A stretch of 64,000 nucleotides of DNA from Clostridia bacterium (GTDB taxonomy: Bacteria > Bacillota > Clostridia > TANB77 > UBA1234): NCBI GenBank assembly GCA_017462965.1, contig JAFTQC010000022.1, positions 96,242 through 160,241 of the forward strand, written 5' to 3'. The notes below the pieces were generated by a model. It had not been told where the DNA came from, did no database searches, and saw only the letters and a program-made list of their open reading frames with translations. The translations under genes and the position numbers were made by a program. Below are positions 32,358 to 57,325 of the stretch, piece after piece. Every line of letters starts with the position of its first letter. Position 1 is the first letter of the stretch.

Positions 32358-32879
32358 ATGAAATATATTTTTGTTTCTGATATTCATGGAAATGTTGAAA
32401 AATTTAGAGAAGTTATCCGCATTTTTAAAGAAGAAAATGCGGATAAACTTGTTTTTTTGGGTGATACATCTTCTGAATATAGTAAAACTTCGGATGAAGA
32501 AATTGCGGATATTTTGAATAGTATGAAAAGAGATGTTCATGTTATACGTGGAAATTGTGATACTAGAAGATTTGAAGAATTGTTAGAATTTGAAATGTAT
32601 GGTTTAGATAATTTATATGTTAATGGAAAATTTGTGACGATTACACATGGCCATTATTATAATATGTACAGTTTGCCTGAAAATTGTGGAGACATCTTTA
32701 TTCAGGGACATACTCATGTTCCAATTCTTCAAGTGATAGATGGTAGAATATTCTCAAATCCTGGTTCAGTCAGCAGGCCAAGAGGAGTAGACTTAAGGTG
32801 TTATATATTGATTGATGAAGAAAAAATATATCTGAAAACTTTGGATGGAAAAGTAGTAAAAAAATTGGAATTGAGCTAG
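32358..32879 (+). CDS. YfcE-like metallophosphoesterase
   Basis: MKYIFVSDIHGN, GDT, GNCD, GHTH motifs. Confidence 0.8.
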   Translation: MKYIFVSDIHGNVEKFREVIRIFKEENADKLVFLGDTSSEYSKTSDEEIADILNSMKRDVHVIRGNCDTRRFEELLEFEMYGLDNLYVNGKFVTITHGHYYNMYSLPENCGDIFIQGHTHVPILQVIDGRIFSNPGSVSRPRGVDLRCYILIDEEKIYLKTLDGKVVKKLELS

Positions 32880-32938
32880 CAAGAGGGACGCCCCTTTTTG
32901 TGAAAATATTTCACAAAAAGGGGCGTCCCTCTTGCTGG
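32876..32938. repeat. Perfect ~57-bp palindrome of GGGACGCCCC family
   Basis: gcaagagggacgcccctttttgtgaaa-ata-tttcacaaaaaggggcgtccctcttgc. Confidence 0.85.
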
Positions 32939-32967
32939 AAAAAGGAACCGTCCCAATTTCCAAATTT

Positions 32968-33375
32968 TTAGTTCACGAAAAAGTTGAGGACTCTGATGAA
33001 TTCATCTTTGTCGTCGAGTCCGATTTCGGTGGAACACACGAAATGGACGGGTTTGTCAGTGCAAAGGTTGGGAAGGTCTTCTTCGAGCGCGGAAAAAAGA
33101 ATTTGCTGGGATGTGCGAATGGGACCACCGACTCGCCTTTGACTTGCGGGGGTGGGATCTTCTTCATATTTCGGCTCCATCATCTGTACGAGTTCTTCTT
33201 TGGAGTCAAGTTCGCTCAGGAACTGCCGAAGGATGCCACTCATTCGCTTAAGCTCCGGACCGCGTGCGGAGTACGTGTAGTCACCCATGTGTCCCCAAAA
33301 GCCAGAACGCTCGCGAGTGATTGCGAAGAGAAACTGGTACTTGGGAGTGTTTGTAGGTTTGTCGAACCATGCCAT
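32968..33375 (-). CDS. Hypothetical protein (GC-rich gene)
   Basis: 135-aa ORF, GC-rich codons; plus-strand overlapping ORF judged spurious. Confidence 0.45.
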   Translation of the reverse strand: MAWFDKPTNTPKYQFLFAITRERSGFWGHMGDYTYSARGPELKRMSGILRQFLSELDSKEELVQMMEPKYEEDPTPASQRRVGGPIRTSQQILFSALEEDLPNLCTDKPVHFVCSTEIGLDDKDEFIRVLNFFVN

Positions 33376-33421: not shown

Positions 33422-34210
33422 TTAAACAGTGAAGTAACGTCCTTCATCGAGAGCTATAGTGTTGCCGAAAACCTTAGATGCTTCGCGAACGTATTTGTTC
33501 ACATCTTCTTCGGGCCAGAAGTGAGTCAGTGCCAGCTTTTTGACACCAGCTTGGAGTGCAATCGTGGCGGCTTGCTTTGCGGTCAAATGGTTATTGATTT
33601 CAGGGTAACCATAGGATTCGAGCAGGCTTGATTCGCAGATGAGCAGGTCAGCTCCTTTTGCAAAGTCTGCAATCTTGTCTTTTGCAGCGAAAGAAGTGTC
33701 GCTTGTATAGACGAGTGACGAATTCTTGGATTGGACTTTGACTGCAAATGTGAGAATATTGTGCTCTGTTGTGCAGAACGTAAGTGTGAGATTGCCAAGC
33801 TCTATTTTGGTATCCTCGGTTAGAGGATGGTATTTGGCAAAAGCGTTTTGCTCAGTGCAGATATCCCGAGAAATCGAGATAGGGGAAGCTGGTAGATAGA
33901 TGTCAAGAGGCTTCTTGAGTCGCCCAAGCTTGTGAAAAACGTATGACGCATACTGGAAGATGAAGATATCGTTGTAGTGATCTCGGTGCAGGTGAGAAAG
34001 GACAATGGTTAATCCATCAAGAGAATCTGGAAATTTCAGATTATTGTGGATTCCACTGCCGCAATCAAGCAGAATCTTTGTTTGTCCATCCCTGACAAGA
34101 AATCCAGGGCAATGATGGGCACCAGTACTGTATGGGGATTGAGTGCCAAGAACTTTAAGCTGCATGAGATAATTCCTCCCTTTGCTTGTACGTAATTGTA
34201 TACTAATCAT
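33422..34210 (-). CDS. MBL-fold metallo-hydrolase
   Basis: HLHRDHYND (HxHxDH) motif. Confidence 0.75.
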   Translation of the reverse strand: MISIQLRTSKGRNYLMQLKVLGTQSPYSTGAHHCPGFLVRDGQTKILLDCGSGIHNNLKFPDSLDGLTIVLSHLHRDHYNDIFIFQYASYVFHKLGRLKKPLDIYLPASPISISRDICTEQNAFAKYHPLTEDTKIELGNLTLTFCTTEHNILTFAVKVQSKNSSLVYTSDTSFAAKDKIADFAKGADLLICESSLLESYGYPEINNHLTAKQAATIALQAGVKKLALTHFWPEEDVNKYVREASKVFGNTIALDEGRYFTV

Positions 34211-35579: not shown

Positions 35580-36230
35580 TTATCTTGCACGGAGCAAAAT
35601 GAATTGCGTTCTGGCTTCATCCAAGATTTGGTTGAAGTTTTTGTCCAGTCGTTCTTGCGTTTGCTCGAACTGATAGAAGCATTCGCCCATTGTCGCGTGG
35701 TGCTTAGCGGTGATTTCTTGAAGTACAGGATTATTTCTGAGTTTCTCGGATGCGTTTTCGAAAGTGCAGGTAAGGTCGCGATCATAGTAAAGGGCCATCA
35801 GATTTGCATCGAGTTTGTCGCACATGTAGGCAAATTGTGCTTCAGGTGTTTCGTGCCCATCGAATTCGAGAATAAGCTTTTCGTATTCTTCTGCTTTGAG
35901 AAGGGGAGAAAGAAGCTTGTGTACGGCTTGATGTCCGCTATCAAGCTTGTCCTCGGCAGATACACCGTCAAACGGGGTGATATCAGAAATGAGGATTTCT
36001 TCGAGTTCGTGTACAGCAAGCATAAGAATTACTTTTCGAAGGTCGATGGAGTATTCGAATTCGGAGTCGATTGCAATTGCAAGCATGCATGTGCTGAAAA
36101 TGTGTTCAGCAACGCTTTCAAGACGTTCGTGTGAGACGTTCCACTGTTTCCAACCGCTTCGTACGAGCGTTTTGAGGTTGTTGGTAAGATAGTAGAAATC
36201 AAGTACAGTTTTGCTGCTATGATTGTTCAT
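35580..36230 (-). CDS. HD-domain hydrolase (YfbR-like 5'-deoxynucleotidase family)
   Basis: AEHIFSTCMLAI...LMLAVHELEEILISDITPFD HD motif. Confidence 0.65.
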   Translation of the reverse strand: MNNHSSKTVLDFYYLTNNLKTLVRSGWKQWNVSHERLESVAEHIFSTCMLAIAIDSEFEYSIDLRKVILMLAVHELEEILISDITPFDGVSAEDKLDSGHQAVHKLLSPLLKAEEYEKLILEFDGHETPEAQFAYMCDKLDANLMALYYDRDLTCTFENASEKLRNNPVLQEITAKHHATMGECFYQFEQTQERLDKNFNQILDEARTQFILLRAR

Positions 36231-36727: not shown

Positions 36728-37276
36728 TTACGCAAATTCGCTGAACCGCCAGAGCAGGGAATGCTTCAGCGGTACGATTTTGGTAACAATGGACCCAAGT
36801 ACCACCCCGCAGACCAGGGTAGAGAGGCCCAACATGATGGGGAAGAACCAGCCAGATCCGTGCTGGAGTTCCATCCAGGGATGAGAAGAGCTCCAGGACC
36901 AGGTCATCCATGAACCATCCCATGCTTTGATACACAGGATGCGCTCTGTGGTCTTACCTTCGTCGATCCAGTACCCAGCGGGAAGCTGATCAGTCGCATC
37001 CGGATTTGCCAGAATGATTTCTGCAGCATTGTGCAGTCCAGCATACGTGTCCGGATAGAGGGCGGTCAGAGCATCGCTCAGGAACGGGAAGCCCAGAAGC
37101 ATCATGCACACAAACCATGCAATGATGGTGTTGAAGATTTTCCGATGAAAGTGAAATTTCATGAAAAATTCATGACGCTCGCTTCGGGTCATCTGAGCAA
37201 GATAGATTTCGTCGCGTTCTTTCTTGGTCAGAGCGGGAGTAGAGGGATAGCGGACGTACTTGGGGTTGGTGGTCAT
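36728..37276 (-). CDS. Hypothetical membrane protein (GC-rich)
   Basis: 182 aa, three hydrophobic helices; RBS aaggaggtt. Confidence 0.55.
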   Translation of the reverse strand: MTTNPKYVRYPSTPALTKKERDEIYLAQMTRSERHEFFMKFHFHRKIFNTIIAWFVCMMLLGFPFLSDALTALYPDTYAGLHNAAEIILANPDATDQLPAGYWIDEGKTTERILCIKAWDGSWMTWSWSSSHPWMELQHGSGWFFPIMLGLSTLVCGVVLGSIVTKIVPLKHSLLWRFSEFA

Positions 37277-40868: not shown

Positions 40869-41693
40869 TCAGGGTTCGCTGGTAATTTTGAATGTGATGA
40901 CGTGTCCCAGCATGGAGGGGAGAGCGGCCATAAAGCTATCAAGTATGGCGTCTATTCCGCCATTTTCGACTTTTTCTTCCATGCTTTCGAAGTTTTTGAT
41001 TGCTTCAATTGACAATTGTAATTGCTCGTCTGTGGGTGTAGAGAGGATTAGGTACTGCAGTCCTCTGTGAACTTGGTATTTTGTGCAAAGGAAGCAGAAA
41101 AGTAGCAAGATGGCTAAACCAATTGGATATGCTAGTGTGTTCGAACCACCAAAAAGTGCGTAAATGATACACAAAGTTACACCGTAGATGAGCTTGAGAA
41201 ACATTGAGTTTGAACCACAATGCTTGGAAATCCTTGAAGAGTTTTTTACTTCTTCGAGTGTCGGAATTCGCTGGAGCTTGGCGTACGCACTGATTACCAT
41301 GTGTTCTGCAGAGTGAAATTGTGAAACTTTATAGAACGGACTTGATTTCCGCTTGTACATGTACCAAACTCGGAAGAATGACAGCAGATTTGGCAGTGCG
41401 AAAAAAGTGAAGAAGAGTGAGATAAAAAACTCGTGTATGCTGGCAGAAAGGATTCCAAGAATGATGATTAATCCACTCAATAGAATCTGTAATTTCGTTT
41501 CAGAAAACTTGAATGTTTTCTTGATTTTTGACTGTTCGATTCCACGGAGAAACTGTATCGGTGCTGTTATGCTACATATTTCGTTTTGTTCGTTGAAGTA
41601 CGTTTTTACCCCCATTCCCTGAACTGTATTGGAGTGAAAAATGATTCCATCCCGGTTGGACTCGGCTTCTTGGACGTGTTTATTGTTCGCCAT
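40869..41693 (-). CDS. Membrane protein, DUF1385 (YqhQ)-like
   Basis: 274 aa with several TM helices and HSAEHM motif; assignment tentative. Confidence 0.45.
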   Translation of the reverse strand: MANNKHVQEAESNRDGIIFHSNTVQGMGVKTYFNEQNEICSITAPIQFLRGIEQSKIKKTFKFSETKLQILLSGLIIILGILSASIHEFFISLFFTFFALPNLLSFFRVWYMYKRKSSPFYKVSQFHSAEHMVISAYAKLQRIPTLEEVKNSSRISKHCGSNSMFLKLIYGVTLCIIYALFGGSNTLAYPIGLAILLLFCFLCTKYQVHRGLQYLILSTPTDEQLQLSIEAIKNFESMEEKVENGGIDAILDSFMAALPSMLGHVITFKITSEP

Positions 41694-41796: not shown

Positions 41797-42567
41797 TTAT
41801 ACTCCTTTCTCGAGTGCAAGTTCATACACCCATTCCCAGAAGAAATCTTCCAGGAAGACAAGTGGTGCTTGTCCATGGGACCAATTCCCAACCATGTAGG
41901 CGTTTTTGGTTATGCCATCTGTGACTTGACATCTTTTTGCGTATTTGCTTTTGGAAATATCGAGGTCGAACAGATTGCTGAAGTCAGAACGCCTGTGAAT
42001 GCTGTCGTTTTCACCGTAAGCGACAAAACAATTTTTTGTGAATTGAAGCTTAGATGATTCGGCAGGTTTGTTTCCTGAAATGAAGACGTATCCGTCTAGA
42101 TACGGATTTTCAGCAATTGCAACTTTGTATGCTGCAATGGCGCCGTTTGAGTGTCCTGCAAGAAGTAGCAAAGCATCAGGAAATTTATCGTGGATGTCTT
42201 TTATGACATTGGACAAATCCTTTTGTTGCTTGCGAAATTGAGCGTTGCCACGGGATTGCGGACAGATTATGAGGACTTCATCAGTCATTTGCAAAGTATT
42301 TTCCTTTGCGTATTTCAGTGGATGGTTGACTTTTGACATTACCCAGAGGTCGTTTATGTTACTGCCGCCATTGTTTCCATCGCCGTGAAGGTAAATGATT
42401 ACAATGTTTGGTGTAACGATGTCGTCTTCTGGATAAATCCATGCTTGGTTCCAAGGATTGCTACGTTTTTCAACTACAGTGATTGCTTTTGCTGGACACA
42501 AAGTGGCAGAAAAAAGAATCACTGTTACTGTAAAACATAGCAAGCACCGCATGAAAATAGATTTCAT
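41797..42567 (-). CDS. Secreted alpha/beta-hydrolase esterase
   Basis: Signal peptide; GHSNGA nucleophile elbow. Confidence 0.7.
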   Translation of the reverse strand: MKSIFMRCLLCFTVTVILFSATLCPAKAITVVEKRSNPWNQAWIYPEDDIVTPNIVIIYLHGDGNNGGSNINDLWVMSKVNHPLKYAKENTLQMTDEVLIICPQSRGNAQFRKQQKDLSNVIKDIHDKFPDALLLLAGHSNGAIAAYKVAIAENPYLDGYVFISGNKPAESSKLQFTKNCFVAYGENDSIHRRSDFSNLFDLDISKSKYAKRCQVTDGITKNAYMVGNWSHGQAPLVFLEDFFWEWVYELALEKGV

Positions 42568-42630
42568 GGAAAATGGTAACCTCCTTTTTGCGAATTTACA
42601 TAATTATACCACAAAATCTGTAAAAAGGGA

Positions 42631-42763: not shown

Positions 42764-44398
42764 GTGCAGTATGTGAATCTGAACAATGCAGTCGCAGTTA
42801 AACGGTTGGTTCCGAAAAGCTATCATTTCGATGGCTACAATGAGCTCAATCGTCAGAATTCCCGGGACAAGCCATTTTTCAGTCAGAACACAGTGAGTTT
42901 CGGTGAACGGTACTATCTTCACATAAGACCGTGGGCCGATGAGATTGTATTCCTGGATTTCGAGAGTCCTTGCGGATTTGGACGGATTGCGTTCGAGTCT
43001 TATCATCTCAGTCTTGATGAGTTTGTCAGCAAGCTTACTAAGGCGGTACAGGATGATGCGGACTTCATAACGTTCGAAATTCCGGTGAGGTACAGAGAAC
43101 GGAAGATTTGCGGTGGTTGTGGAACTGAAAACGAGGCATGTATGATGCTTCTGAAGACTAAGCCCAAAAGCGTCATGGCAGCGGTTTCTTTCGACATGGA
43201 TGAGGTAAAATATGCCCTGGCTAGATACCATGGCATTGTAGCTAACAACGAACCAATTAGAGGAGGAATTAACATGAAGGGCAAGAAGAACTTTTTCGGC
43301 ATGAATTTCGAGTTTGGTCGTTCTCGTGACATCAACCTGGCCTCTACGCTGATGGGCGTCGCGGTGCGCAACAGTGCGAGTGGCAATTGGTATGTCTTTG
43401 ATTCTGCGAACAACACCCGGAAGAACCTGGCCAATCTGAAGATGGGCAATTTCCCTGTTTTCCTGTTGCCGGTTGCGCAGCTCTCCGTCGGTGATCTGAC
43501 GAAGATCGACGGTCAGTACTACTACGTTCAGGAGAAGAAGCCGAACAATTCCATGGTGCTGGTGAGCGCGGCCGACGGCTTTGTCCGCGAGATGATTCCG
43601 GAGCAGGGCCTTATTCCTGGCATGAGTATCCATACCAAGGTGGTTGCGTTCGACATCAATTCCATGACGAATCCTTCTTCGAAGGAGAACATGGGTGGCA
43701 GTGTTCTGGCGGCCATGTGCATGATGGGCTGGGCTGATGGCGGCAAGCATGAATTTTCTCTGGACAACATTCAGGATGATTCTTTCAATGGTCTCGGTGC
43801 CTGCCTGCCCATGTTGATGGCGGCGAATAACGGTGGCGATTTCGGCAGTCTTTTCAAGAGTGCCGACGGTAGCCTGAATCTGACGACTCTGATGATGCTG
43901 GGCTCCGATTCTGGTGGAAATGATATGGACAACATGATGCAGCTCGTGGTTCTACAGCAGTTGCTTGGCGGTGGCCAGGGCGGCATGCCGAATATCCTCG
44001 GTCAGAATGTTGTGGTTCCTGGCGCTCCTGTTACTCCTGTAGCTTCGGCTGGCGAGGTATCTGCTGATGAAGTCGAATGCGAGAAGTGTGGCCAGAGCTA
44101 TCCGGCGGGTACGAATTTCTGCCCCAAGTGCGGAGGTAAGACGGCATCCAAGATTACTGTTTGCCGGGCCTGCGGTGCTACGCTCATGAAGGGTGCATCA
44201 TTCTGCCATAAGTGCGGTACCAAGGCTACGCTGACGGTGTGCAGCAAGTGCAATCGCGTTCTGGGCCCCGATGAGCTGTTCTGCATGAATTGTGGTACGA
44301 AGGCCGGCGAAAAGGCTGAGGATACGAATCCCGTCAAAGCATGTGGAGAGCATCCCAAGCTTCCGGAAGTGATCGAATCCGAGCCCTGCAACGGCTGA
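42764..44398 (+). CDS. GC-rich hypothetical protein with C-terminal array of zinc-ribbon motifs
   Basis: C-terminus CEKCG..FCPKCG, CRACG..FCHKCG, CSKCN..FCMNCG; GTG start (42764 or 42773) with aggagg RBS. Confidence 0.65.
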   Translation: MQYVNLNNAVAVKRLVPKSYHFDGYNELNRQNSRDKPFFSQNTVSFGERYYLHIRPWADEIVFLDFESPCGFGRIAFESYHLSLDEFVSKLTKAVQDDADFITFEIPVRYRERKICGGCGTENEACMMLLKTKPKSVMAAVSFDMDEVKYALARYHGIVANNEPIRGGINMKGKKNFFGMNFEFGRSRDINLASTLMGVAVRNSASGNWYVFDSANNTRKNLANLKMGNFPVFLLPVAQLSVGDLTKIDGQYYYVQEKKPNNSMVLVSAADGFVREMIPEQGLIPGMSIHTKVVAFDINSMTNPSSKENMGGSVLAAMCMMGWADGGKHEFSLDNIQDDSFNGLGACLPMLMAANNGGDFGSLFKSADGSLNLTTLMMLGSDSGGNDMDNMMQLVVLQQLLGGGQGGMPNILGQNVVVPGAPVTPVASAGEVSADEVECEKCGQSYPAGTNFCPKCGGKTASKITVCRACGATLMKGASFCHKCGTKATLTVCSKCNRVLGPDELFCMNCGTKAGEKAEDTNPVKACGEHPKLPEVIESEPCNG

Positions 44399-44435
44399 GC
44401 AACAATGGCTTCACATGAAGTAGAGGTGAGTTACG

Positions 44436-44714
44436 ATGGGGCTTAACATCCGCAAACGAGTCCTCATTCATGAGGAAGTGGTTCATAGATGCAAATCTTG
44501 CAACGTCATATTTGGCAAAGATGCTTTGTTTTGCTCTCAATGTGGTAAACCGCTCGAAAAAGAGAAAACAAAAATCTATGCTAATTACGGCAAAAAAGGA
44601 CTTACATCTCTTAGCTATGTCTCGCCTGACGGCACAACGTTCAACACTAAAGGAAAGCTCACTCAAAAAATCGCAGACGGCGTTTCATACACAACGAACA
44701 TGAACAAATCCTGA
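44436..44714 (+). CDS. Small zinc-ribbon protein
   Basis: CKSCN...FCSQCG motif. Confidence 0.55.
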   Translation: MGLNIRKRVLIHEEVVHRCKSCNVIFGKDALFCSQCGKPLEKEKTKIYANYGKKGLTSLSYVSPDGTTFNTKGKLTQKIADGVSYTTNMNKS

Positions 44715-44728
44715 TAATTCAGGACAAC

Positions 44729-44770
44729 AAAAAATGGACAAGGGGACGGTTCTCTTGTCCATTTTTTTTA
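44729..44770 (+). terminator. Rho-independent terminator (repeat-family hairpin)
   Basis: aaaaatggacaag-gggacggttct-cttgtccatttttttt. Confidence 0.7.
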
Positions 44771-44912
44771 GCAAGAGGCAGCAAGAGGGAACGTCATCAA
44801 CGGGGACAGCCCTTTTTGATAAACATAAACATTAATAAAAGTGTAAATTATTTTTACTTATTTATCAAAAAGGGCTGTCCCCGTTGATGACGTTCCCTCT
44901 TGCTGCCTCTTG
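44771..44912. repeat. Compound MITE-like inverted repeat of GGGACAGCCC family (52-bp perfect arms, 37-nt AT-rich centre)
   Basis: 44771-44823 exact reverse complement of 44861-44912. Confidence 0.85.
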
Positions 44913-44980
44913 ATGATTCCGTCTCCATGTCCCAAAAAGGAGCGTCCCTCTTGCTGAAAAAGGAAACGCTCCAATTTGTC

Positions 44981-46204
44981 TTAATACGTGAGCTGCTGGA
45001 TTGTATCTAGCTTTTTTAGCTCGTGCACCAAAATTGATTGGGCGAGCTGGTGAAAGGTGTTAAGTGAAGTGTTTGGAAGGCTTTTCAAAGCCCTTTGCCT
45101 GTAGTAGTATAGAGTGTCATTTACTATTTGATCGAGGCAGGTGAATGTAACGTTCACAGTATGCGGAATCGAAATACCGTTGAGGTGCAACAAATCCTTG
45201 TTTATTGCAGAGGCGAGCAGGTCAAAGTCCAAGTATCCGAATCTAATGGAGCCTTGGAATTTATTGTGAACATTTGTAGGGTCATATACTTTGGCATAAG
45301 GCTTGCCCAAAACTTCTCGAGGGAACGGGCCTGCGCCATGGCGGGTGAGATAGCACCTGCTCATGTAGTAAAGATCCATTTGTCCTTGATAACTCATATC
45401 TGTCAAGCTTTTGAGCACATTTTGAACGCCGGTGTTTGATGTTGTTACGTGAGGAAAGAACTCTTGATTATTCTGATCCAAAAGGAGTCCTTGAGCACCT
45501 TCGAACACGACATCATTGAAACGTGAGAAAATTTCGTTTCCTCGAATGCTTACATTTGCCAAAAATTCTTGCGCGAAGAATGAGAAAAATTCCCAATTCA
45601 TTTGATCACCAAAAGCATCTTGAAATTCTTCTGGTAAATCACATAACTCGAGGCCATATTCTTCGTGAAGACGCTTGGGCACGTATTCATTGCGAATCGC
45701 AGAAAATTTTCTCTGAAGAGTTGCAAACGAGAATAAATCGGTAACTGTAATTTTGAAGTCATCGATTGAGCTTCTTATTACAGTTTCGTTGATTCCTAAG
45801 CCGCAACTACCGTGACGATTTGTACCGCGCATTGTCTCAACAGCTTGATTAATATAGATATCCCAAGGTGTTGTCACGATGGCATCGGGATGTACGAAAA
45901 CATTAGGATGGAGCTCAAATTTTTTCTGAAGCTCACTAAGTTCCATACAAAAAGCCATTGGATTAACTATAAAATCTTCTGAGAGATATGTTTTGGCACC
46001 ATTGAAAGAACCAGATCCAAAGTGGCTGAAAGCATGGCGCTTTCCGTCTTTGGAAATCGCTGTATGCGAAGCTTGTGCTCCACCATTGAACCTAACATTC
46101 AATGTATTGTTGTTGCAAAATCGGCTAGTCATGTGGCCTTTACCTTCGTCGCCCCATAAACTTCCGATTACAACAGAGCATTTGTCCAAGAAACTCACCA
46201 CCAT
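44981..46204 (-). CDS. Divergent adenylosuccinate synthetase (PurA)-like enzyme
   Basis: PurA motifs GSLWGDEGKGH, VFEGAQGLLLD...HVTTSNTG, YLTRHGAGPFP; GC-rich. Confidence 0.75.
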   Translation of the reverse strand: MVVSFLDKCSVVIGSLWGDEGKGHMTSRFCNNNTLNVRFNGGAQASHTAISKDGKRHAFSHFGSGSFNGAKTYLSEDFIVNPMAFCMELSELQKKFELHPNVFVHPDAIVTTPWDIYINQAVETMRGTNRHGSCGLGINETVIRSSIDDFKITVTDLFSFATLQRKFSAIRNEYVPKRLHEEYGLELCDLPEEFQDAFGDQMNWEFFSFFAQEFLANVSIRGNEIFSRFNDVVFEGAQGLLLDQNNQEFFPHVTTSNTGVQNVLKSLTDMSYQGQMDLYYMSRCYLTRHGAGPFPREVLGKPYAKVYDPTNVHNKFQGSIRFGYLDFDLLASAINKDLLHLNGISIPHTVNVTFTCLDQIVNDTLYYYRQRALKSLPNTSLNTFHQLAQSILVHELKKLDTIQQLTY

Positions 46205-46211
46205 TCAATTT

Positions 46212-46268
46212 AGAAATTGGGACGGTCCCTTTTTCCAATTTGGAAAATAGAACCGTCCCAAATTCCAA
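46212..46268. repeat. GGAAATTGGGACGGTCC-type imperfect palindrome inside operon intergenic gap
   Basis: ggaaattgggacggt ... accgtcccaaattcc. Confidence 0.65.
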
Positions 46269-46272
46269 TTAT

Positions 46273-47232
46273 TTAGAAGACGTCAATAGGATGATCATTC
46301 TTCTTATTGGATGCGTCAGTGCTTACGGTTTCTTCGTGATACCGCAGTGCATCACGGACAATGCCTTTGGCACGTTCGCCTTGAATCAGGTCGATTGCCT
46401 CAGTTTTGCTAAGGCCTTCGTACATCTTGATGATTGTAGTGACGAGTTCAGGCATGAACTTGTGGTCGGAAAGGTCGCATGCGTGGCCTTTCATGAGCCT
46501 GCGCCATTCGGAAACTGTGCGCTCAGGATGGTGAGTGTAATAGTTGCCGTGCAGGATGATGTGGTAACAGTAGAACTTCTCCGATGCCATCTCAAGGCAG
46601 TCAGAAGCTGTTACGAGACGTACCGGATGAGGGTCGTTCTTACCAAACACGCTGCGAATCTCCCTGTCCGTCAGGTGGGGCGTGGGACATTCATCACCAA
46701 AAGTGAAGAGAAAACCTTTTTCGCCGCGCTTGTCGACACAGTCCATCTTGATGAACTTGCCAGCGAAGTACCACGGCAGGATGTAGCTTTCGTAGTGGTT
46801 GCCACCACCGCCTTCTTCGAGATAAATTTTCTCGAGCTGTTCGAGGATTCTGATGTCGGCCTCAAACTGAGTGACTTGAAGCGGTGCTTCGTCGTAGCCA
46901 GCAACGTCACCGACGCCCATGAACATGATGTGGGGATCGAAGTTGACGCTGTTATAAATGAGATTGGTCAGACGCGGGAACTCGGTTTTCACGAGACTGA
47001 GCAGGAATCGTGACATGGAACCAGTCACGTCCTCAGCAAAAATGATGCCGCGAGAATTCGGGCTTGTTGCAGAGTCACATGCTTCGCGAGGAAGCTTCAT
47101 TTGTGCCGGATCGAACAGGGGATGCATTTTGGTTTCCTTGAAAACCTGATTTGCAGTCATGACCCTGTCGATGGAACGAGATGCGTAAAAGTTCTTCATG
47201 TCGGAATGAGAAATTCGACCTCCACCACCCAT
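46273..47232 (-). CDS. von Willebrand factor A (vWA) domain protein
   Basis: MIDAS motif DVTGSMS (DxSGS). Confidence 0.65.
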   Translation of the reverse strand: MGGGGRISHSDMKNFYASRSIDRVMTANQVFKETKMHPLFDPAQMKLPREACDSATSPNSRGIIFAEDVTGSMSRFLLSLVKTEFPRLTNLIYNSVNFDPHIMFMGVGDVAGYDEAPLQVTQFEADIRILEQLEKIYLEEGGGGNHYESYILPWYFAGKFIKMDCVDKRGEKGFLFTFGDECPTPHLTDREIRSVFGKNDPHPVRLVTASDCLEMASEKFYCYHIILHGNYYTHHPERTVSEWRRLMKGHACDLSDHKFMPELVTTIIKMYEGLSKTEAIDLIQGERAKGIVRDALRYHEETVSTDASNKKNDHPIDVF

Positions 47233-47256
47233 AAAAAATTCCTCCTTAGATGGTAA

Positions 47257-48309
47257 TTATTTTATCGAAATGTCCAGCGGGACAAATCTTCGTGAGGGGA
47301 AACTTTGGCTTAAAACCTCGTCGTAGATTCCAAATTGCTCGTATGCATTTTTTTCTACAGAAGACGAGTTAAGCCAAGTTGCAAGTGGCTCTGGGACATC
47401 AGTTCTGAAATGTGCACCATTCGGATCACCAAGCAATTCGCGTGCAATACGTTTGATTGCAAGCGAATCAACAGCAAAGTTAGAAAAACCATGCTCCTTG
47501 ACGGATGCAGGGGCAATGTCAAGAATTTCTTTTGGCATCCCTTTGATTTGCTCGTCTGTCCATGTCGAAAAGAACCATCCGCCATACACACCGACAATTC
47601 TGATGTCGTCGAGAGTAACCTTTTGGCCATTTTCAACGAAGTTGCCAGGAGCGAAAAAGAGATTGTCGATTGTGATTGCGTTGTGTGTAATCCCGATGAG
47701 ATCAAGATAACACGCAAAGTAATGAAGCCTTGTGAGAATGGATGTGACAACTTCTGCGCTCAAACTTCCGCCGCAATACTCCAAAATTTCCCGGAGGGGA
47801 TAAATTTTGTTTTTGGGCTTTTTGAGGATGATTGCAAAATCGCCATCTTCGCATTCAAAGTGGCTTGCGAGCTTGGGAAGAGAGTACTTGACTTTATCCC
47901 AAATTTCCTTGGAAATCTTGGTAAAGCTGGATGCTTTCTGAATGTAATTTTCGTAGTATTCTTTGTATTCACTGTGTACCACGAAAATGATGTTCGCATC
48001 AGAAACATACATCGTACCAAGCTTACTGTCGTAGAAGTTGTAGATATTGTAAGAACAATCTGATTGTCCATCCTTTGAAACAAGTTGCAATGTAGATTCA
48101 TGATCCGGGGCCTCAAGCAATTCCAAGGCTTTTCTATAGAGTTGAATGACTTTTTGGCTTGCCATGAAGTGTTTGACTGTATTGTATGGAGCTGGTTTAA
48201 AGAGCTCCAGATACTCGTCGCGCTGCATTTCAAGCGTATCCAAGTTCAGCTCAAATAGTTGCCGTGGAGACGTTGCTCTTATGACTTCATCAGCCGTTTT
48301 GAGTTTCAT
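47257..48309 (-). CDS. Hypothetical protein, possibly kinase-like fold
   Basis: 350 aa; 24-nt gap to vWA gene; segment LDLIGITHNAITIDNLFF weakly reminiscent of kinase catalytic loops; no confident family. Confidence 0.55.
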   Translation of the reverse strand: MKLKTADEVIRATSPRQLFELNLDTLEMQRDEYLELFKPAPYNTVKHFMASQKVIQLYRKALELLEAPDHESTLQLVSKDGQSDCSYNIYNFYDSKLGTMYVSDANIIFVVHSEYKEYYENYIQKASSFTKISKEIWDKVKYSLPKLASHFECEDGDFAIILKKPKNKIYPLREILEYCGGSLSAEVVTSILTRLHYFACYLDLIGITHNAITIDNLFFAPGNFVENGQKVTLDDIRIVGVYGGWFFSTWTDEQIKGMPKEILDIAPASVKEHGFSNFAVDSLAIKRIARELLGDPNGAHFRTDVPEPLATWLNSSSVEKNAYEQFGIYDEVLSQSFPSRRFVPLDISIK

Positions 48310-48422
48310 GTCATCACACCTTTCTAAAATTGGTCGTAAAATTATCGTGAACCGTGTGAAAAACCGATTAAATTAACATAAAATATATACCATAAAAAGC
48401 GTGCTGAGTCAAGTAGCAAGCT

Positions 48423-48446
48423 AGCAAGAGGGACGCCCCTCTTGCT
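48423..48446. repeat. Short GGGACGCCCC hairpin
   Basis: agcaagagggacgcccctcttgct. Confidence 0.7.
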
Positions 48447-48455
48447 AGAAAAAAA

Positions 48456-48490
48456 GCACCCCACACGTATTTGTGCGGGGTGCAGTAGTA
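48456..48490 (-). terminator. Stem-loop gcaccccacacg...cgtgtggggtgc with T-run on minus strand
   Basis: Perfect inverted repeat then aaaaaaa (plus) downstream of 48497 gene. Confidence 0.65.
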
Positions 48491-48496
48491 GAATAG

Positions 48497-49264
48497 TTAT
48501 TCTTCTTTTTCGGCTTCGGTAGCTTCAGCAGGCACATCAGAGACTACGAGATGTTCCATGGCGTATTTCACGCCTTCGACATAGCCTTGGCTGTGACCTT
48601 CGTCGAAACCGTATTCATACGTATCATCCATACCCTGGCCAAAGCCGGCTGTACGTCCTTCGACGTAACCTTCGTCGTATCCTTTCTTAAAACCGGCATC
48701 ATATGCCTCTTTCTCACGAGCAGCATCAGGATGCTTTTCGGCATCTTCCTTGGAGATATTGAATATTGCCATATTCTTCGTGGTGGTATACTCCTCGCAA
48801 AGGGATTTGATGCGATTTACTACATATTTGATGCCTTTGATGATCAGGAAAAGAATGCCGTAGAAGATGTAGTAGAGCAGAATAGTAGAAATGGCCAATA
48901 CAGTTACAAAAGCAGCATAGTACGAGAACATGCCCTTATCAGACTCAAAGTGATACGTTCCGTCGGGATTGAGCGTTGCTGTAGCACTTTCAAATGTGCT
49001 GCGAGCGTTGAGTTCCACGACAGAACCCTCCATCTCCAGAGTGTAGCGCGAGGTGTCGATGCCGACAGCAGGATTCTCGATGTACTCCCTGAGCTCGTTC
49101 TCACAAGCAAGGACTCCTTCATCAGTAGAAGGATAGACATTGCTGATGCAGAAAGAAAAAGAGAGGATCAGCGCGAGGCAAAACAAGATAGCTTTTTTGA
49201 GCTGTCCGCTGTACTTATGCCCCATGGTCTGAAGCGTCTGAGCGTTAGCCGACCGATTCTTCAT
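48497..49264 (-). CDS. Membrane protein with C-terminal GF.KGYDEGYVEG repeats
   Basis: Signal/TM, internal TM ILLYYIFYGILFLII, repeats AGFKKGYDEGYVEG/YGFDEGHSQGYVEG. Confidence 0.55.
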   Translation of the reverse strand: MKNRSANAQTLQTMGHKYSGQLKKAILFCLALILSFSFCISNVYPSTDEGVLACENELREYIENPAVGIDTSRYTLEMEGSVVELNARSTFESATATLNPDGTYHFESDKGMFSYYAAFVTVLAISTILLYYIFYGILFLIIKGIKYVVNRIKSLCEEYTTTKNMAIFNISKEDAEKHPDAAREKEAYDAGFKKGYDEGYVEGRTAGFGQGMDDTYEYGFDEGHSQGYVEGVKYAMEHLVVSDVPAEATEAEKEE

Positions 49265-49359
49265 AGTTTTCTACCTCCTATTTTCTGGTAGTCGTTTGGG
49301 TTAACATTGAAACACAAAAATATTATCATATAAAAATTATGAAGTCAAATTGCAAATTT

Positions 49360-49425
49360 CGTCCATTTGACGGACGTCCGCCATGGACGAAAAAAAGGAC
49401 AAGAGCCCCGTCCCCTTGTCCTTTT
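49360..49425. repeat. GACGGACGTCC unit followed by GGACAAG-AGCCCCGTCCC-CTTGTCC hairpin
   Basis: Read directly; second hairpin doubles as terminator of 49424 gene. Confidence 0.75.
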
Positions 49426-52311: not shown

Positions 52312-53424
52312 TCAGAGTTTTTCGTCAGGGATTTCGCTTGCAAGCCGATAGTTGCTGTAATGAATGTCGTTGGTTACATCTTGCAATGCTTTGATGAAAT
52401 CGGGAATCTTGAATTTGGAAGCTTCAGAAGAAAGTTCTACCTCGAGAATAGCGACACCATCCCAGAAGGGATAGATATCGAGTTCGAAGTAGAGATTGTC
52501 GTGAATGAAGCAATAGCGTGTTTTCTGGATTTGACGCTTGCGACAATCACTTTGAACCAGCAAATCAAAGTATTCCTTTGCAGAAATTTTTCGTTCGTTT
52601 TCGATTCGTACGCCTTTGCGAATAGTACGCTTTTCAGTGTAGAAGAAAGTGTAGTCTCCGTCGATGCCGCGCATGCGGAGTCTTCTTTCCAAGCCAGAGC
52701 CATTATCACAAAGGTAGGTCTGAATGATTTCAGATTTGGAAAGATTGACGAACTTAGCAAGCTCATCAATATTCGGTTTCTTGATGAGAAATTTCTTCTC
52801 GATTTCAAGAGGTTCGGGTTTTCCAATGACTGCACAGATTTCAGCTATGAAACGCGTGATCTTCTTGGAAAAGCTGGTGCTGTTGTCGATGATGCGAAGG
52901 TGAGGATGACCCGTCCAGACTTTTTTAAGAGCTCTGTCAGCAGCGATGGCTTCTTCAACATTTTCATATCGAGCCTTGTTGCTCTTCATGTTTGCAATGT
53001 AAGCTTCCTCGGCACCATCAGCTGCAGTAATCATGTGAATCACGGCATCATAACGATTCATGAGAGAGTTAATCGTTTGTCCGTTTCTCCGCAGAATTTC
53101 CTCGACATCTTCAGGAGAGCTGTAAGCAAGTCCGTCAAGCAATCCTCGATCGTAGATGATTATGATGTTCTCGTCTTCGCACTTTTCAGCAGCTTCATTA
53201 AGGATAGCCTCCATATGAAGTTGCGTCCGGAAAAGCATGTCCTGGAATTCCACATTGCGGTATTCACGAAGCTTAATGCCACAGCCATACAGCGTGGTGA
53301 ATGTTTCAGGAGCGATGAATACCTTGAAGCCAAGAGCCGAAAGCTCTGGTTCAACACGTGCGAAAGCAGTTGTTTTACCCGCACACGGTCCGCCTGTAGA
53401 CACAATTCGATAGATTTTTTTCAT
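52312..53424 (-). CDS. P-loop NTPase (NadR/AAA_28-like) fused to CYTH (triphosphate tunnel) domain
   Basis: Walker A GGPCAGKTT, Walker B IIIYDRG; CYTH ExExK EIEKKFLI and Arg-rich strands; start at MKKIYRIV with RBS ggaggg. Confidence 0.6.
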   Translation of the reverse strand: MKKIYRIVSTGGPCAGKTTAFARVEPELSALGFKVFIAPETFTTLYGCGIKLREYRNVEFQDMLFRTQLHMEAILNEAAEKCEDENIIIIYDRGLLDGLAYSSPEDVEEILRRNGQTINSLMNRYDAVIHMITAADGAEEAYIANMKSNKARYENVEEAIAADRALKKVWTGHPHLRIIDNSTSFSKKITRFIAEICAVIGKPEPLEIEKKFLIKKPNIDELAKFVNLSKSEIIQTYLCDNGSGLERRLRMRGIDGDYTFFYTEKRTIRKGVRIENERKISAKEYFDLLVQSDCRKRQIQKTRYCFIHDNLYFELDIYPFWDGVAILEVELSSEASKFKIPDFIKALQDVTNDIHYSNYRLASEIPDEKL

Positions 53425-53543
53425 CGAGGCTTCCCTCCTATAAGAATTATTTGATCCAGCCAAAGTATATCAACCTCAAGGTTAAAAGTAAATATAGGAA
53501 TAAAAAATAAATATTGCCATAAAATAAAACAGAGGTGATGTTA

Positions 53544-55969: not shown

Positions 55970-56779
55970 ATGACGGACAAGTTGGAACTGGTGCGGAAAT
56001 ACCACGAGGAAAATGCTCTCGAGCGTCTTTTTGTTGGGAGCAAGGAACTGGAAATCAAGCTCATGCACATTTGTGGCATGGCGGACATCGCGATGGAAAT
56101 CGCAAGTGTTTACAAGGCAAATTTTGACCGTGAGCTTCTGAAGCTCTGTGCTTTGCACCATGATGACGGTCGAGTGCTGCAGTACAAGTATCTGGGCAAT
56201 TTCAACGACAGGGAGCTTTCCCACAATGAACTCGGAGCTATGGCTCTGAACCAGTGGTGCATCAAGAATAAGATTACGCCGGATAGCGCTATTCATGTGC
56301 TTCGCGACGTGATGATGTATCATGGACGCTTGGCTCTTTGCGAATGCAGAGTCACGTGGGAATCTCGGCCGTATATCGAAATTATCAGTGATGCTGATGA
56401 TATCGAGAATGGCTGCATCGGGGCGGTCGGCTATCTTCTGAATGAATGCCGGACTGATGCAAAGGGGTACAACACTACGCATCCTGAACATTTCGGCAAA
56501 ATCAAGCCGGAGTTGTGGGCATTTTACGAGCTTGGACAGTGGTTCGACAAGATGAAGTACTGTGAAAGCTATGCGGAATACGTACTCTTTGCAGCCACTC
56601 TGGCAATGAAGTCCATCAAGAAGTATGGGTGGATCGCCAAGAAGGCTATGCTGAAGCCCAGCTATGGCTACGCAAGTGCTCTTCAGGGCTACGAAGACAT
56701 TTTCTCGCAGGTGATGTCTTACGAGGATGCCAAGCATGCTATCAATGTTCTGCGCAAGGCATGCACCGTCGAAGAGTAA
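55970..56779 (+). CDS. HD-domain phosphohydrolase (GC-rich)
   Basis: LCALHHDDGR HD motif. Confidence 0.6.
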   Translation: MTDKLELVRKYHEENALERLFVGSKELEIKLMHICGMADIAMEIASVYKANFDRELLKLCALHHDDGRVLQYKYLGNFNDRELSHNELGAMALNQWCIKNKITPDSAIHVLRDVMMYHGRLALCECRVTWESRPYIEIISDADDIENGCIGAVGYLLNECRTDAKGYNTTHPEHFGKIKPELWAFYELGQWFDKMKYCESYAEYVLFAATLAMKSIKKYGWIAKKAMLKPSYGYASALQGYEDIFSQVMSYEDAKHAINVLRKACTVEE

Positions 56780-56881: not shown

Positions 56882-57325
56882 TTAGTGAGGCAACATGACA
56901 AACTTGCGCTTCCCTGAAGGCGTTTTGAACTCTGCGATATGAAGTTCTAAAAGCCCGTTGTTATAAAATACATAGGGAAGATAGCCAGTAATATCATTTT
57001 GTTTGCAGACTTCAGAAATCCACTCGTTGTGGTATCCTTTGCGAAGTGCATCCACAATTTCATGTACGAATATCAAGCCGTTTTCTTCGGCCATTTTTTT
57101 GATTTCGTCAGTGGTGATGAGATTGAATTGCGGTGTAGGTGCGAGCATCCGATAAGACGTTCCTTCAGAAGATTTCTCTTCTAAAATATCGATCACAAGG
57201 TCTGTGCCGTTGAAGTATGCATGCGTGCAGGCATCTTCTTTGCAAAAGCGAGAGTGTTCTGTGCAAATGTTGTTCCAACCGAAAATAACGACCGGTTCGG
57301 TTAAAACATGTTTTTCTATGGCCAT
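56882..57325 (-). CDS. Hypothetical protein
   Basis: 147-aa ORF; RBS aaggaggtc. Confidence 0.5.
   Translation of the reverse strand: MAIEKHVLTEPVVIFGWNNICTEHSRFCKEDACTHAYFNGTDLVIDILEEKSSEGTSYRMLAPTPQFNLITTDEIKKMAEENGLIFVHEIVDALRKGYHNEWISEVCKQNDITGYLPYVFYNNGLLELHIAEFKTPSGKRKFVMLPH

What the first reader, a model, noticed from the sequence alone, without database searches (positions are those of the whole stretch)
42764..49264. Compositionally foreign GC-rich island (and several smaller ones) in an AT-rich chromosome
By eye, codon third positions at 42.9-44.4 kb and 45.0-49.2 kb are dominated by G and C (ccg/ggc/gcg codons), whereas the neighbours (acyltransferase, clpC, phage genes) are AT-rich. 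Smaller GC-rich patches occur at 32.97-34.2, 35.6-37.3, 52.3-53.4 and 55.97-57.3 kb. Each is bordered by the palindromic repeats. The pattern suggests repeated horizontal acquisition, perhaps mediated by the repeats.
Basis: seen in the sequence. Interest (0 to 1): 0.55.

Follow-up and report, generated by a model that had tools for sequence, protein, structure and literature searches.

The report
Foreign GC-rich gene islets in Clostridia
A low-GC gut-type Clostridia chromosome carries fifteen GC-rich genes that were acquired from elsewhere and are slowly drifting towards host composition; this is ordinary horizontal transfer, except that the largest block holds an uncharacterised kinase-like/vWA/PurA-like gene trio that is also conserved in hundreds of large phages.

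Summary
Fifteen genes in seven patches between 32.97 and 57.33 kb have third-codon-position GC (GC3) of 0.41-0.63. Twenty-nine native and prophage genes have 0.12-0.28, and the two sets do not overlap. The main island actually runs 40,869-49,264.

A foreign origin is supported. Codon usage is unrelated to the host's. Content varies among sister species and within one of them. A substitution model mostly shows decay from an ancestral GC3 of about 0.6 towards the host value.

Acquisition happened more than once, and before the sister species split. No donor was identified.

The palindromic repeats are a clade-specific family of small hairpin elements that look like terminators. They border 9 of 10 island edges but also fill 9 of 15 other spacers. 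They insert alone between core genes, and no recombinase gene is present. A role in capture is therefore not supported.

The island core, 42,764-48,309, is a conserved five-gene module:
- a protein with a J-domain-like N-terminus and a kinase fold;
- a vWA protein;
- a PurA-type ligase;
- two zinc-ribbon proteins on the opposite strand.

The first three genes occur in the same order in Cluster C mycobacteriophages and in many metagenomic contigs, including large viral ones; the vWA and PurA-like genes are also adjacent in Rhizobium and Vibrio phages. I found no published function for them.

The parts
32968..33375 (-). GC-rich ORF of 135 aa, no family match
   Evidence: GC3 0.57. No hit in Pfam, NCBIfam, PADLOC or PHROGs.
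33422..34210 (-). GC-rich metallo-beta-lactamase-fold hydrolase, similar to RNase Z and to cyclic-nucleotide phosphodiesterases
   Evidence: GC3 0.45. PF12706 at 1.4e-15. NF041851 scores 103 bits, below its cut-off of 400.
35580..36230 (-). GC-rich HD_3 / YfbR-like nucleotidase
   Evidence: GC3 0.48. PF13023 at 1.2e-28.
36728..37276 (-). GC-rich ORF of 182 aa, no family match
   Evidence: GC3 0.63, the highest in the window.
40869..41693 (-). DUF1385-like protein; true left end of the main island
   Evidence: GC3 0.47. PF07136. Orthologues in L004 (81% aa) and L027 (66%).
41797..42567 (-). Alpha/beta-hydrolase-like protein with a hydrophobic N-terminus that may be a signal peptide
   Evidence: GC3 0.41. 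Weak Abhydrolase_5 and Hydrolase_4 hits. Truncated in L004; three tandem paralogues in L003.
42764..44398 (+). Module gene 5: 544-aa protein with an unknown N-terminal domain and C-terminal double zinc ribbons
   Evidence: GC3 0.61. PF12773 DZR. Conserved opposite the trio in Clostridial loci L024-L038, L152. Only a fragment remains in L004.
44436..44714 (+). Module gene 4: 92-aa zinc-ribbon protein
   Evidence: GC3 0.44. Weak zinc-ribbon hits. A 90-92-aa partner gene is present in every five-gene locus.
44981..46204 (-). Module gene 3: PurA-type (adenylosuccinate synthetase family) ligase with a divergent C-terminus
   Evidence: PF00709 at 150.7 bits over profile positions 1-314 of 416. TIGR00184 scores 124.8, below its cut-off of 395; PurZ scores 40.9, below 300. 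phrog_1211 at 1.4e-58. The GDEGKG, SHT, FEGAQG, VTTSN and TRHGAGPFP motifs align to solved PurA structures.
46273..47232 (-). Module gene 2: vWA-fold protein with a MIDAS-like D68-x-T-G-S72 motif
   Evidence: AlphaFold2 model pLDDT 86.9. Foldseek hits to integrin I domains and the NorD vWA domain. phrog_2971 at 2.6e-33. D68, G71 and S72 are invariant in 37 homologues.
47257..48309 (-). Module gene 1: J-domain-like N-terminus followed by a protein-kinase fold; probably catalytically atypical
   Evidence: AlphaFold2 model pLDDT 88.4. Foldseek hits to PknA, PknB, PknI and the J-PKAc chimera. Distant homologues carry PF00226 DnaJ. The sequence reads HNA where kinases have HRD, and GGW where they have DFG (read by eye).
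48497..49264 (-). GC-rich 255-aa protein; right end of the main island
   Evidence: GC3 0.52. 73% aa identity to the L004 orthologue.
52312..53463 (-). GC-rich protein with an AAA_28 NTPase domain fused to a C-terminal domain resembling the solved proteins 2fbl and 3typ
   Evidence: GC3 0.46. PF13521. The C-terminus matches PDB 2fbl and 3typ. Orthologues sit at the same locus with GC3 0.40 in L004 and 0.23 in L003.
55970..56779 (+). GC-rich HD-domain protein of 269 aa
   Evidence: GC3 0.61. PF01966. Reduced to a fragment of about 200 nt in L004 and absent from L003.
56882..57325 (-). GC-rich ORF of 147 aa
   Evidence: GC3 0.45. 82% aa identity in L004; absent from L003.
32878..32963 (.). Palindromic repeat cluster: an A-type inverted doublet plus one C-type unit
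   Evidence: The 58-nt doublet is 97% identical to the one at 37355-37412 (family D2).
44731..44955 (.). Repeat cluster between the two converging operons of the module: B-type, A-type doublet, A-type
   Evidence: The B-type copy has a counterpart at the same position in L027 (3542-3576).
49359..49425 (.). D-type and B-type repeat units at the right border of the main island
59568..59602 (.). B-type repeat inserted between the core genes mcsB and clpC
   Evidence: The spacer is 59 nt in the window and 21 nt in L004. This shows that the repeats insert on their own.

Best explanation
The GC-rich patches are horizontally acquired accessory genes. They entered the chromosome of a low-GC Clostridia lineage in several events, from sources with GC3 of at least about 0.6. 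At least some acquisitions predate the split of the window species from its sister species (L004/L150-151 and L027).

Since then the genes have been inherited vertically under purifying selection. Their synonymous sites have been eroding towards the host's AT-rich equilibrium. Some lineages are deleting them.

Shown:
- the atypical composition and codon usage;
- the patchy presence across and within species;
- the same five-gene module in unrelated genomic contexts in other Clostridia.

Inferred:
- the direction and timing of transfer;
- the composition of the donor.

The palindromic repeats are a separate layer. They are a clade-specific family of small hairpin elements, resembling terminators, that settle in intergenic spacers whatever genes lie on either side.
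For: Composition and codon usage.

Synteny:
- L004 (core proteins 90-99% identical) keeps DUF1385, unk255, AAA_28 and unk147. It has a 5.3-kb deletion from inside ZnR544 to unk255, and only a ~200-nt remnant of HD269 remains.
- L150/L151 belong to the same species as L004 (LexA 100%, acyltransferase 99%). They carry the intact module plus an intact flotillin gene.
- L027 (Fe-ADH 98% identical) has the intact module.
- L003 lacks everything except AAA_28 and the hydrolase paralogues.

Selection: dN/dS (ratio of protein-changing to silent substitutions) is 0.04-0.17 for island genes.

Substitution rate: the proportion of differing synonymous sites is 0.41-0.73 in island genes and 0.29-0.50 in core genes. 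A higher rate is expected when AT-biased mutation acts on GC-rich sequence.

Two-state non-stationary maximum-likelihood model on synonymous third positions:
- Core genes have an equilibrium GC3 of 0.11-0.17.
- AAA_28 has an ancestral GC3 of 0.66 decaying to 0.11, with branch lengths like those of the core.
- The kinase-vWA-PurA operon, at fourfold sites, has an ancestral 0.66 and an equilibrium of 0.09. Stationarity is rejected (2dlnL 11.7).
- A second, independent clade (L035/36/37) has an ancestral 0.59-0.62 and an equilibrium of 0.04-0.20. Stationarity is rejected (2dlnL 44.5 and 14.4), while the flanking genes are stationary at 0.07-0.11.

Mobility: at least six different chromosomal contexts.

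No intrinsic constraint: in non-Clostridial contigs, several of them viral, the trio's GC3 equals that of its background.
Against: No donor was found. The closest homologues outside the clade (about 65% identical; L152, L153) are themselves in AT-rich hosts.

In all ten AT-rich Clostridial loci examined, the module lies above the flanking genes in GC3, with the same rank order among its genes. This needs either recurrent import or some gene-specific pressure.

The two zinc-ribbon genes of the window clade show no decay. Their fitted equilibrium is 0.77-0.78, and a host-like equilibrium is rejected (2dlnL 29-36).

The model has only two states, uses a three-taxon star tree and assumes one process on all branches.

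No mobility gene or direct-repeat scar marks any patch.
Confidence: 0.75

Rival explanations
1. The palindromic repeats capture or mobilise the GC-rich genes as cassettes. In this view the repeats act as recombination sites, like integron attC sites, or as the terminal inverted repeats of non-autonomous elements.
For: Nine of ten borders between native and GC-rich genes carry a repeat.

In L003 the empty rSAM|ctsR spacer holds a D-type inverted pair. Its two arms resemble the sequences on either side of HD269+unk147 in the window.

Nearly identical 58-nt doublets flank 32.9-37.4 kb.

A B-type unit sits at the junction of the L004 deletion.
Against: Nine of fifteen other spacers of at least 50 nt also carry repeats (Fisher p = 0.18).

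Presence or absence of a repeat changes without any change in gene content, at McsB|ClpC, LexA|AAA_28 and unk147|ctsR.

The L004 islets lack bordering repeats.

The two borders of most patches carry different repeat families.

The 32.9-37.4 kb segment flanked by the doublets includes the native coaDE gene.

No integrase, RAYT or transposase gene is present in the window.
Confidence: 0.1
2. The genes are not foreign. Their GC-rich synonymous sites are maintained in place, by selection on codon usage or mRNA, or by biased gene conversion at a recombination hotspot.
For: The module lies above its background in all ten AT-rich Clostridial loci, with the same rank order of genes.

ZnR92 and ZnR544 look stationary or rising in the window clade. 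ZnR544 also has a core-like proportion of differing synonymous sites, 0.41-0.49.
Against: Decay from about 0.6 towards the host equilibrium fits AAA_28, the trio, and both parts of the module in the second clade. Stationarity is rejected in each case.

In AT-rich phage-like contigs the trio is at or below its background.

The genes are dispensable and unevenly distributed.
Confidence: 0.1
3. The patches are remnants of one or more decayed prophages of a higher-GC phage. The foreign genes came in as phage cargo.
For: The PurA-like, vWA, AAA_28 C-terminal, HD_3 and unk255 proteins all hit PHROG phage-protein families.

The trio is common in large phages.

The region lies next to a tmRNA gene that already hosts a prophage.
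Against: No structural, replication or integrase phage genes lie among the patches.

The patches are interleaved with core genes such as coaDE, lexA and ctsR-clpC.

The nearest relatives of the module (50-66% identity) are chromosomal Clostridial copies, whereas phage copies are only 31-45% identical.
Confidence: 0.15
4. The mosaic is an artefact of metagenome assembly or binning.
For: The source is a metagenome-assembled genome.
Against: The same junctions occur in an independent ENA assembly (L001, 100% identical proteins). They also occur in L004, L027, L150 and L151, which come from other samples. Composition switches at gene boundaries within single contigs.
Confidence: 0.01

Closest known systems
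Genomic islands or islets acquired by horizontal transfer, followed by amelioration (the Lawrence and Ochman model; from my own knowledge)
   Same: Atypical GC3 and codon usage. Patchy distribution among close relatives. Faster synonymous change. Modelled decay towards the host equilibrium.
   Different: The foreign DNA is GC-richer than the host, whereas foreign DNA is usually AT-richer. It is split into seven one- to eight-gene islets interleaved with core genes. No integrase, no insertion at a tRNA gene and no direct-repeat scar is present. The donor is unidentified.
REP / REPIN / MITE-like intergenic palindromic elements, such as the REPINs of Pseudomonas and E. coli and the Correia elements of Neisseria (from my own knowledge)
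   Same: Imperfect palindromes of 21-35 nt. Strictly intergenic. Often arranged as inverted doublets. Several related families. Presence or absence differs between sister genomes. Hairpin followed by a T-run, as in terminators.
   Different: Found here in a low-GC Clostridia clade. No RAYT-type transposase was seen in the 64 kb. No Rfam family matches. Genome-wide copy number is unknown.
PurA (adenylosuccinate synthetase) and the phage enzyme PurZ
   Same: PF00709 domain. The GDEGKG P-loop, the catalytic His and the IMP-binding FEGAQG and VTSSN-type motifs are conserved.
   Different: Scores fall far below the NCBIfam cut-offs for both PurA and PurZ. The last 70-90 residues do not align to PurA. 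The protein keeps the PurA-type Asp where PurZ has Ser (residue named in bioRxiv 10.1101/2025.10.22.683976). It is always paired with a vWA protein, and usually also with a kinase-fold protein.
TerY-P type triads: vWA protein, Ser/Thr kinase and phosphatase (Anantharaman, Iyer and Aravind 2012; from my own knowledge, not tested)
   Same: A vWA protein encoded next to a protein with a kinase fold, in bacteria and phages.
   Different: There is no PP2C phosphatase. The third partner is a PurA-type ligase. The kinase appears to lack the HRD and DFG aspartates and carries a J-like N-terminus.

Membership tests
Horizontally acquired genomic island | Base composition and codon usage unlike the host's | tested here: met
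   GC3 is 0.41-0.63 against 0.12-0.28. Codon-usage correlation with native genes is 0.28 or less, against 0.90 between native and prophage genes.
Horizontally acquired genomic island | Patchy presence among close relatives | tested here: met
   L003 lacks most of the genes. L004 has deleted or truncated the module and HD269. L150/L151, of the same species as L004, have the module intact.
Horizontally acquired genomic island | Mobility genes (integrase or transposase), insertion at a tRNA or tmRNA gene, flanking direct repeats | tested here: not met
   No such Pfam domain occurs in any ORF of 30-64 kb. The tmRNA gene at 29,968-30,321 is 2.6 kb away and its 3' end faces the prophage. No flanking direct repeats were found.
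Horizontally acquired genomic island | An identifiable donor lineage with matching composition | tested here: not met
   The best homologues outside the clade are 50-66% identical and lie in AT-rich hosts.
REP / REPIN-like elements | Short imperfect palindromes confined to intergenic DNA, often as inverted doublets | tested here: met
   Thirty sites, all in spacers or touching a stop codon. Doublets lie at 32880-32937, 37355-37409, 51408-51462, 53731-53822 and 44803-44881.
REP / REPIN-like elements | A cognate RAYT (IS200/IS605-like) transposase and hundreds of copies per genome | not testable with these tools
   Only 64 kb plus about 8 kb of the genome is available, and no such gene lies in it.
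Adenylosuccinate synthetase PurA (equivalog) | Score above the NCBIfam TIGR00184 cut-off | tested here: not met
   124.8 bits against a cut-off of 395.55. The Pfam match ends at profile position 314 of 416.
Adenylosuccinate synthetase PurA (equivalog) | Catalytic P-loop Asp and Lys, catalytic His, and IMP-binding motifs | tested here: met
   The GDEGKG, SHT, FEGAQG, VTTSN and TRHGAGPFP motifs align to 3ue9 and 6bs7.
PurZ (2-aminoadenine pathway) | Score above the NF038379 cut-off, and Ser in place of the P-loop Asp | tested here: not met
   40.9 bits against a cut-off of 300. The protein has Asp in GDEGKG. The residue criterion comes from bioRxiv 10.1101/2025.10.22.683976.
vWA domain | Rossmann-like vWA fold with a MIDAS DxSxS motif | tested here: met
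   Foldseek probability 1.0 to integrin I domains and NorD vWA; TM-score up to 0.65 when normalised by target length. D68, G71 and S72 are invariant, and T70 stands in for the first Ser.
Active Ser/Thr protein kinase | HRD catalytic Asp and DFG Asp | tested here: inconclusive
   The fold matches PknA, PknB and PknI. The family consensus reads H-N-G/A and G-G-W at the expected places. This was read by eye, not from a structural superposition.
J domain (Hsp70 co-chaperone) | Pfam DnaJ match and an HPD tripeptide | tested here: not met
   The window protein has no Pfam hit. It reads KPA where HPD would be expected. Only the distant homologues P0338 and P0341 carry PF00226, weakly.

The most novel reading that the evidence does not exclude
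The core of the island is the Clostridial, chromosomal form of an undescribed three-gene system: a J-like kinase-fold protein, a vWA/MIDAS protein and a PurA-type ligase with a new C-terminus. In Clostridia two zinc-ribbon proteins are added.

The trio keeps its gene order in Cluster C mycobacteriophages (the vWA gene is found in about 200 mycobacteriophage records) and in hundreds of metagenomic contigs, some of them large viral ones; in Rhizobium and Vibrio jumbo phages only the vWA and PurA-like pair was detected.

It could be a new purine-nucleotide-based system in phage-host conflict. Two possibilities are rebuilding AMP-type nucleotides from IMP-type products of deaminase defences, or making a modified nucleotide or a nucleotidylated protein. 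The Clostridial version would then be repeatedly imported into AT-rich hosts, which would explain its persistent GC excess.
Probability: 0.3. Interest if true: 0.7.

Novelty: new member of a known kind. Interest (0 to 1): 0.4.

Why it matters
As a compositional finding it is a clean, well-controlled example of horizontal gene gain, amelioration and loss at gene scale in an uncultured gut-type Clostridia lineage. It is useful but not surprising.

What it leads to may matter more. It exposes a widely distributed, strongly conserved gene trio shared by large phages and Clostridia. All three folds are recognisable, yet I found no published function. The ligase is testable in vitro, and the trio is testable genetically in Cluster C mycobacteriophages.

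It also documents a family of small palindromic mobile elements that is specific to one Clostridia clade.

Tried and rejected
Searches that found nothing useful:
- An exact look-up of the PurA-like protein found no record.
- PADLOC gave no defence-system match for ten island proteins.
- IMG/VR scans found no relative of HD269. For the PurA-like protein they found only relatives 25-29% identical.
- Rfam has no family for the repeats. The only hit in 30-64 kb is tmRNA.
- A PDB sequence search for ZnR544 found nothing.
- Eight literature searches found no paper on the kinase/vWA/PurA-like trio.

Analyses set aside:
- Parsimony polarisation of GC-to-AT against AT-to-GC changes showed an AT-to-GC excess even in core genes. 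This is the known parsimony bias in AT-rich sequence. I replaced it with the maximum-likelihood model.
- Three-taxon sets containing both L004 and L150 are in effect two-taxon comparisons and cannot give direction.
- My first rough calculation suggested the island genes were too GC-rich to have decayed since the species split. The model showed that the branches are short enough.
- Replacement by divergent alleles through recombination was considered as a cause of the high synonymous divergence. It was rejected because the relative distances among the three species are the same for all module genes, and because the rate excess is about what AT-biased mutation predicts.

Full report
OBSERVATION.

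The window has 34% GC. A 27-kb prophage and the core genes sit at 25-33%. Between 32.97 and 57.33 kb there are sharp blocks of 41-56% GC whose edges fall at gene boundaries.

Fifteen ORFs have GC3 (G+C at third codon positions) of 0.41-0.63. Twenty-nine native or prophage ORFs have 0.12-0.28. The ranges do not overlap, Mann-Whitney p = 4e-8, and the lowest island gene is 5 sd above the native mean.

Relative synonymous codon usage correlates at 0.90 between native and prophage genes. Between any GC-rich patch and native genes it correlates at only -0.21 to 0.28. The patches are rich in C-ending codons, 0.29-0.35 against 0.08.

The main island actually begins at 40,869.

GENE CONTENT.

- Patch 1: an unknown 135-aa ORF and a metallo-beta-lactamase-fold hydrolase.
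- Patch 2: an HD_3 nucleotidase and an unknown 182-aa ORF, separated by an AT-rich stretch with a 79-aa ORF.
- Main island: DUF1385, an alpha/beta-hydrolase-like protein, ZnR544, ZnR92, the PurA-like ligase, a 319-aa protein, a 350-aa protein and a 255-aa protein.
- Further right: an AAA_28 NTPase fused to a domain resembling PDB 2fbl/3typ, then an HD protein and a 147-aa ORF.

The core genes interleaved with these are coaDE, an AI-2E transporter, a histidine kinase, Fe-ADH, an acyltransferase, lexA, a radical-SAM gene (rSAM below) and ctsR-mcsA-mcsB-clpC. No integrase or transposase gene is present.

SOURCE AND RELATIVES.

The 350-aa protein is identical to one in an NCBI MAG (metagenome-assembled genome) named 'Clostridia bacterium'. 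An independent ENA assembly, L001, has the same arrangement. Four relatives were recovered.

- L004, an 'uncultured Eubacteriales' MAG, has core proteins 90-99% identical to the window's. It keeps DUF1385, unk255, AAA_28 and unk147. It has lost 5.3 kb, from inside ZnR544 to unk255, and only a ~200-nt remnant of HD269 remains.
- L150/L151 belong to the same species as L004 (LexA 100%, acyltransferase 99%). They have the intact module plus an intact GC-rich flotillin gene. That gene is a fragment in L004 and is absent from the window.
- L027 (Fe-ADH 98% identical) has the intact module with the same neighbours.
- L003, more distant (78-91%), has only AAA_28 (GC3 0.23) and three hydrolase paralogues. 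Its rSAM gene abuts ctsR.

So the genes are accessory. They were gained at different times and are now being lost.

THE MODULE.

The block 42,764-48,309 recurs as [350 aa][319 aa][PurA-like] facing [about 90-aa zinc ribbon][about 520-540-aa zinc ribbon] on the opposite strand. It does so in many Clostridial contigs, at 39-68% identity, in at least six different chromosomal contexts.

The first three genes are far more widespread. At least 559 metagenome stretches encode a relative of the 319-aa protein. Among the 80 loci retrieved (GC 27-73%), the PurA-like and 350-aa genes flank it in the same order wherever the contig is long enough. The 319-aa protein is also found in 36 IMG/VR viral contigs, many of 50-455 kb.

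In mycobacteriophage JayJay, gp260-262 are annotated 'serine/threonine kinase', hypothetical protein and 'PurA-like adenylosuccinate synthetase', in that order. About 200 mycobacteriophage records hold a relative of the 319-aa gene. In Rhizobium and Vibrio phages the 319-aa and PurA-like genes are adjacent.

AlphaFold2 models give the following.
- The 319-aa protein has a vWA fold (pLDDT 87; hits to integrin I domains and the NorD vWA domain). It has an invariant D-x-T-G-S MIDAS-like motif.
- The 350-aa protein has a three-helix J-like N-terminus followed by a protein-kinase fold (pLDDT 88; hits to PknA/B/I and the J-PKAc chimera). It appears to lack the HRD and DFG aspartates.

The PurA-like protein keeps the PurA catalytic and IMP-binding motifs. 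It fails the PurA and PurZ equivalog cut-offs, and its C-terminus is divergent.

I found no paper on this trio.

IS IT FOREIGN AND AMELIORATING?

Island genes are under purifying selection, with dN/dS of 0.04-0.17. They change faster at synonymous sites than core genes do: the proportion of differing sites is 0.41-0.73 against 0.29-0.50. AT-biased mutation acting on GC-rich DNA predicts such an excess. The relative distances among the three species are the same for every module gene, which argues for vertical descent since their common ancestor.

I fitted a two-state (G/C against A/T) non-stationary maximum-likelihood model to synonymous third positions on three-taxon star trees. Results:
- Core genes have an equilibrium GC3 of 0.11-0.17.
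- AAA_28 has an ancestral GC3 of 0.66 decaying to 0.11, with branch lengths like the core's. This explains the series 0.46 (window), 0.40 (L004) and 0.23 (L003).
- DUF1385, the hydrolase and the ZnR544 N-terminus together have an ancestral 0.50-0.57.
- The trio, at fourfold sites, has an ancestral 0.66 and an equilibrium of 0.09. Stationarity is rejected.
- An independent clade (L035/36/37) repeats the pattern. Its flanking proteins are up to 99% identical and stationary at 0.07-0.11. Its module has an ancestral 0.59-0.62 decaying to 0.04-0.20.

In AT-rich phage-like contigs the trio is not above its background, so nothing intrinsic to these genes forces high GC3.

UNEXPLAINED.

- ZnR92 and ZnR544 in the window clade show no decay. 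Their fitted equilibrium is 0.77-0.78, and a host-like equilibrium is rejected.
- The module exceeds its flanking genes in GC3 in all ten AT-rich Clostridial loci, with the same rank order among its genes.
- The nearest homologues outside the clade are themselves in AT-rich hosts, so no donor is identified.

THE REPEATS.

Four related families (A-D) share a GGGAC-type core. Each unit is a 21-35-nt imperfect palindrome, and units often form inverted doublets. They occupy 30 sites, all between 32.9 and 62.1 kb and all intergenic. None lies in the prophage.

Several score as hairpins followed by a T-run, like intrinsic terminators. Rfam has no match.

The families occur only in this clade. L004 has 6 sites, L027 has 4 and L003 has 6. 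The unrelated Clostridial loci searched have at most one weak match. Three L027 copies sit at the same positions as window copies, so the family predates the species split.

The repeats lie at 9 of 10 island borders, but also in 9 of 15 other spacers of at least 50 nt (p = 0.18). Comparison with L004 shows that single units insert on their own between core genes. One example is the 38 extra nucleotides in the McsB|ClpC spacer. The L004 islets lack bordering repeats.

One site hints at a link. HD269+unk147 lies between sequences that resemble the two arms of the D-type pair found at the empty site in L003. The evidence is weak, and the other patches do not show it.

VERDICT.

'Foreign, and acquired more than once' is supported. 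'Mediated by the repeats' is not.

The phenomenon is a known kind: horizontally acquired islets that are ameliorating and decaying. The most interesting by-product is the uncharacterised trio of kinase-fold protein, vWA protein and PurA-like ligase, shared with large phages.

Noticed in passing
window 29968-30321 (-), and about 2.7-29.9 kb: A tmRNA gene lies directly next to a prophage of about 27 kb. The prophage includes a CI-like S24/HTH repressor at 2749-3504 and large ORFs up to about 29.9 kb whose codon usage matches the host's (r = 0.90). No integrase domain was found in the ORFs I scanned. ARAGORN's predicted tag peptide, GIYKVTKIKSLFVGV, is atypical and may be miscalled.
   Followed up: partly
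window 44981-48309; L149 (Mycobacterium phage JayJay gp260-262); L008; L009; L110: A three-gene set with conserved order: a J-like kinase-fold protein, a vWA protein and a PurA-like ligase. It occurs in Cluster C mycobacteriophages and in many metagenomic and viral contigs; in Rhizobium and Vibrio phages only the vWA and PurA-like pair was detected. I found no functional study in the paper library.
   Followed up: partly
window 59621-62047 against L004 14515-16941: clpC is almost identical between the window species and L004. The proportion of differing synonymous sites is 0.09, against 0.3-0.5 for neighbouring core genes. This suggests recent recombination between the species or an unusually strong synonymous constraint.
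   Followed up: no
L004 3164-5029 against L150 4968-6536: Presence or absence differs within one species. L004 carries a deletion of the module and a fragmented GC-rich flotillin gene. L150/L151 carry both intact. A B-type repeat sits at the deletion junction in L004.
   Followed up: partly
window 59562-59620 against L004 14494-14514: A clean empty-site comparison. The window has 38 extra nucleotides, one B-type palindromic unit, inserted in the A-rich mcsB-clpC spacer just upstream of the clpC ribosome-binding site.
   Followed up: yes
L003 2570-5117: Three tandem paralogues of the alpha/beta-hydrolase-like gene (GC3 0.25-0.35) occupy the place where the window has one copy plus the module.
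   Followed up: no
window 42764-44714: The two zinc-ribbon genes keep or gain GC at synonymous sites in the window clade, while the adjacent operon loses it. ZnR544 also has the lowest synonymous divergence of the island genes.
   Followed up: partly
window about 53543-53698 (+): A conserved 51-aa ORF (MSEKIFRTKGKGI...) lies in the spacer between AAA_28 and the Cys-rich gene. It is also present in L004 and is called as a gene in L001.
   Followed up: no
window 53853-54200 (-): An AT-rich 115-aa protein, rich in Cys and His, with no family match. It is conserved in L003 and L004 next to the radical-SAM gene.
   Followed up: no
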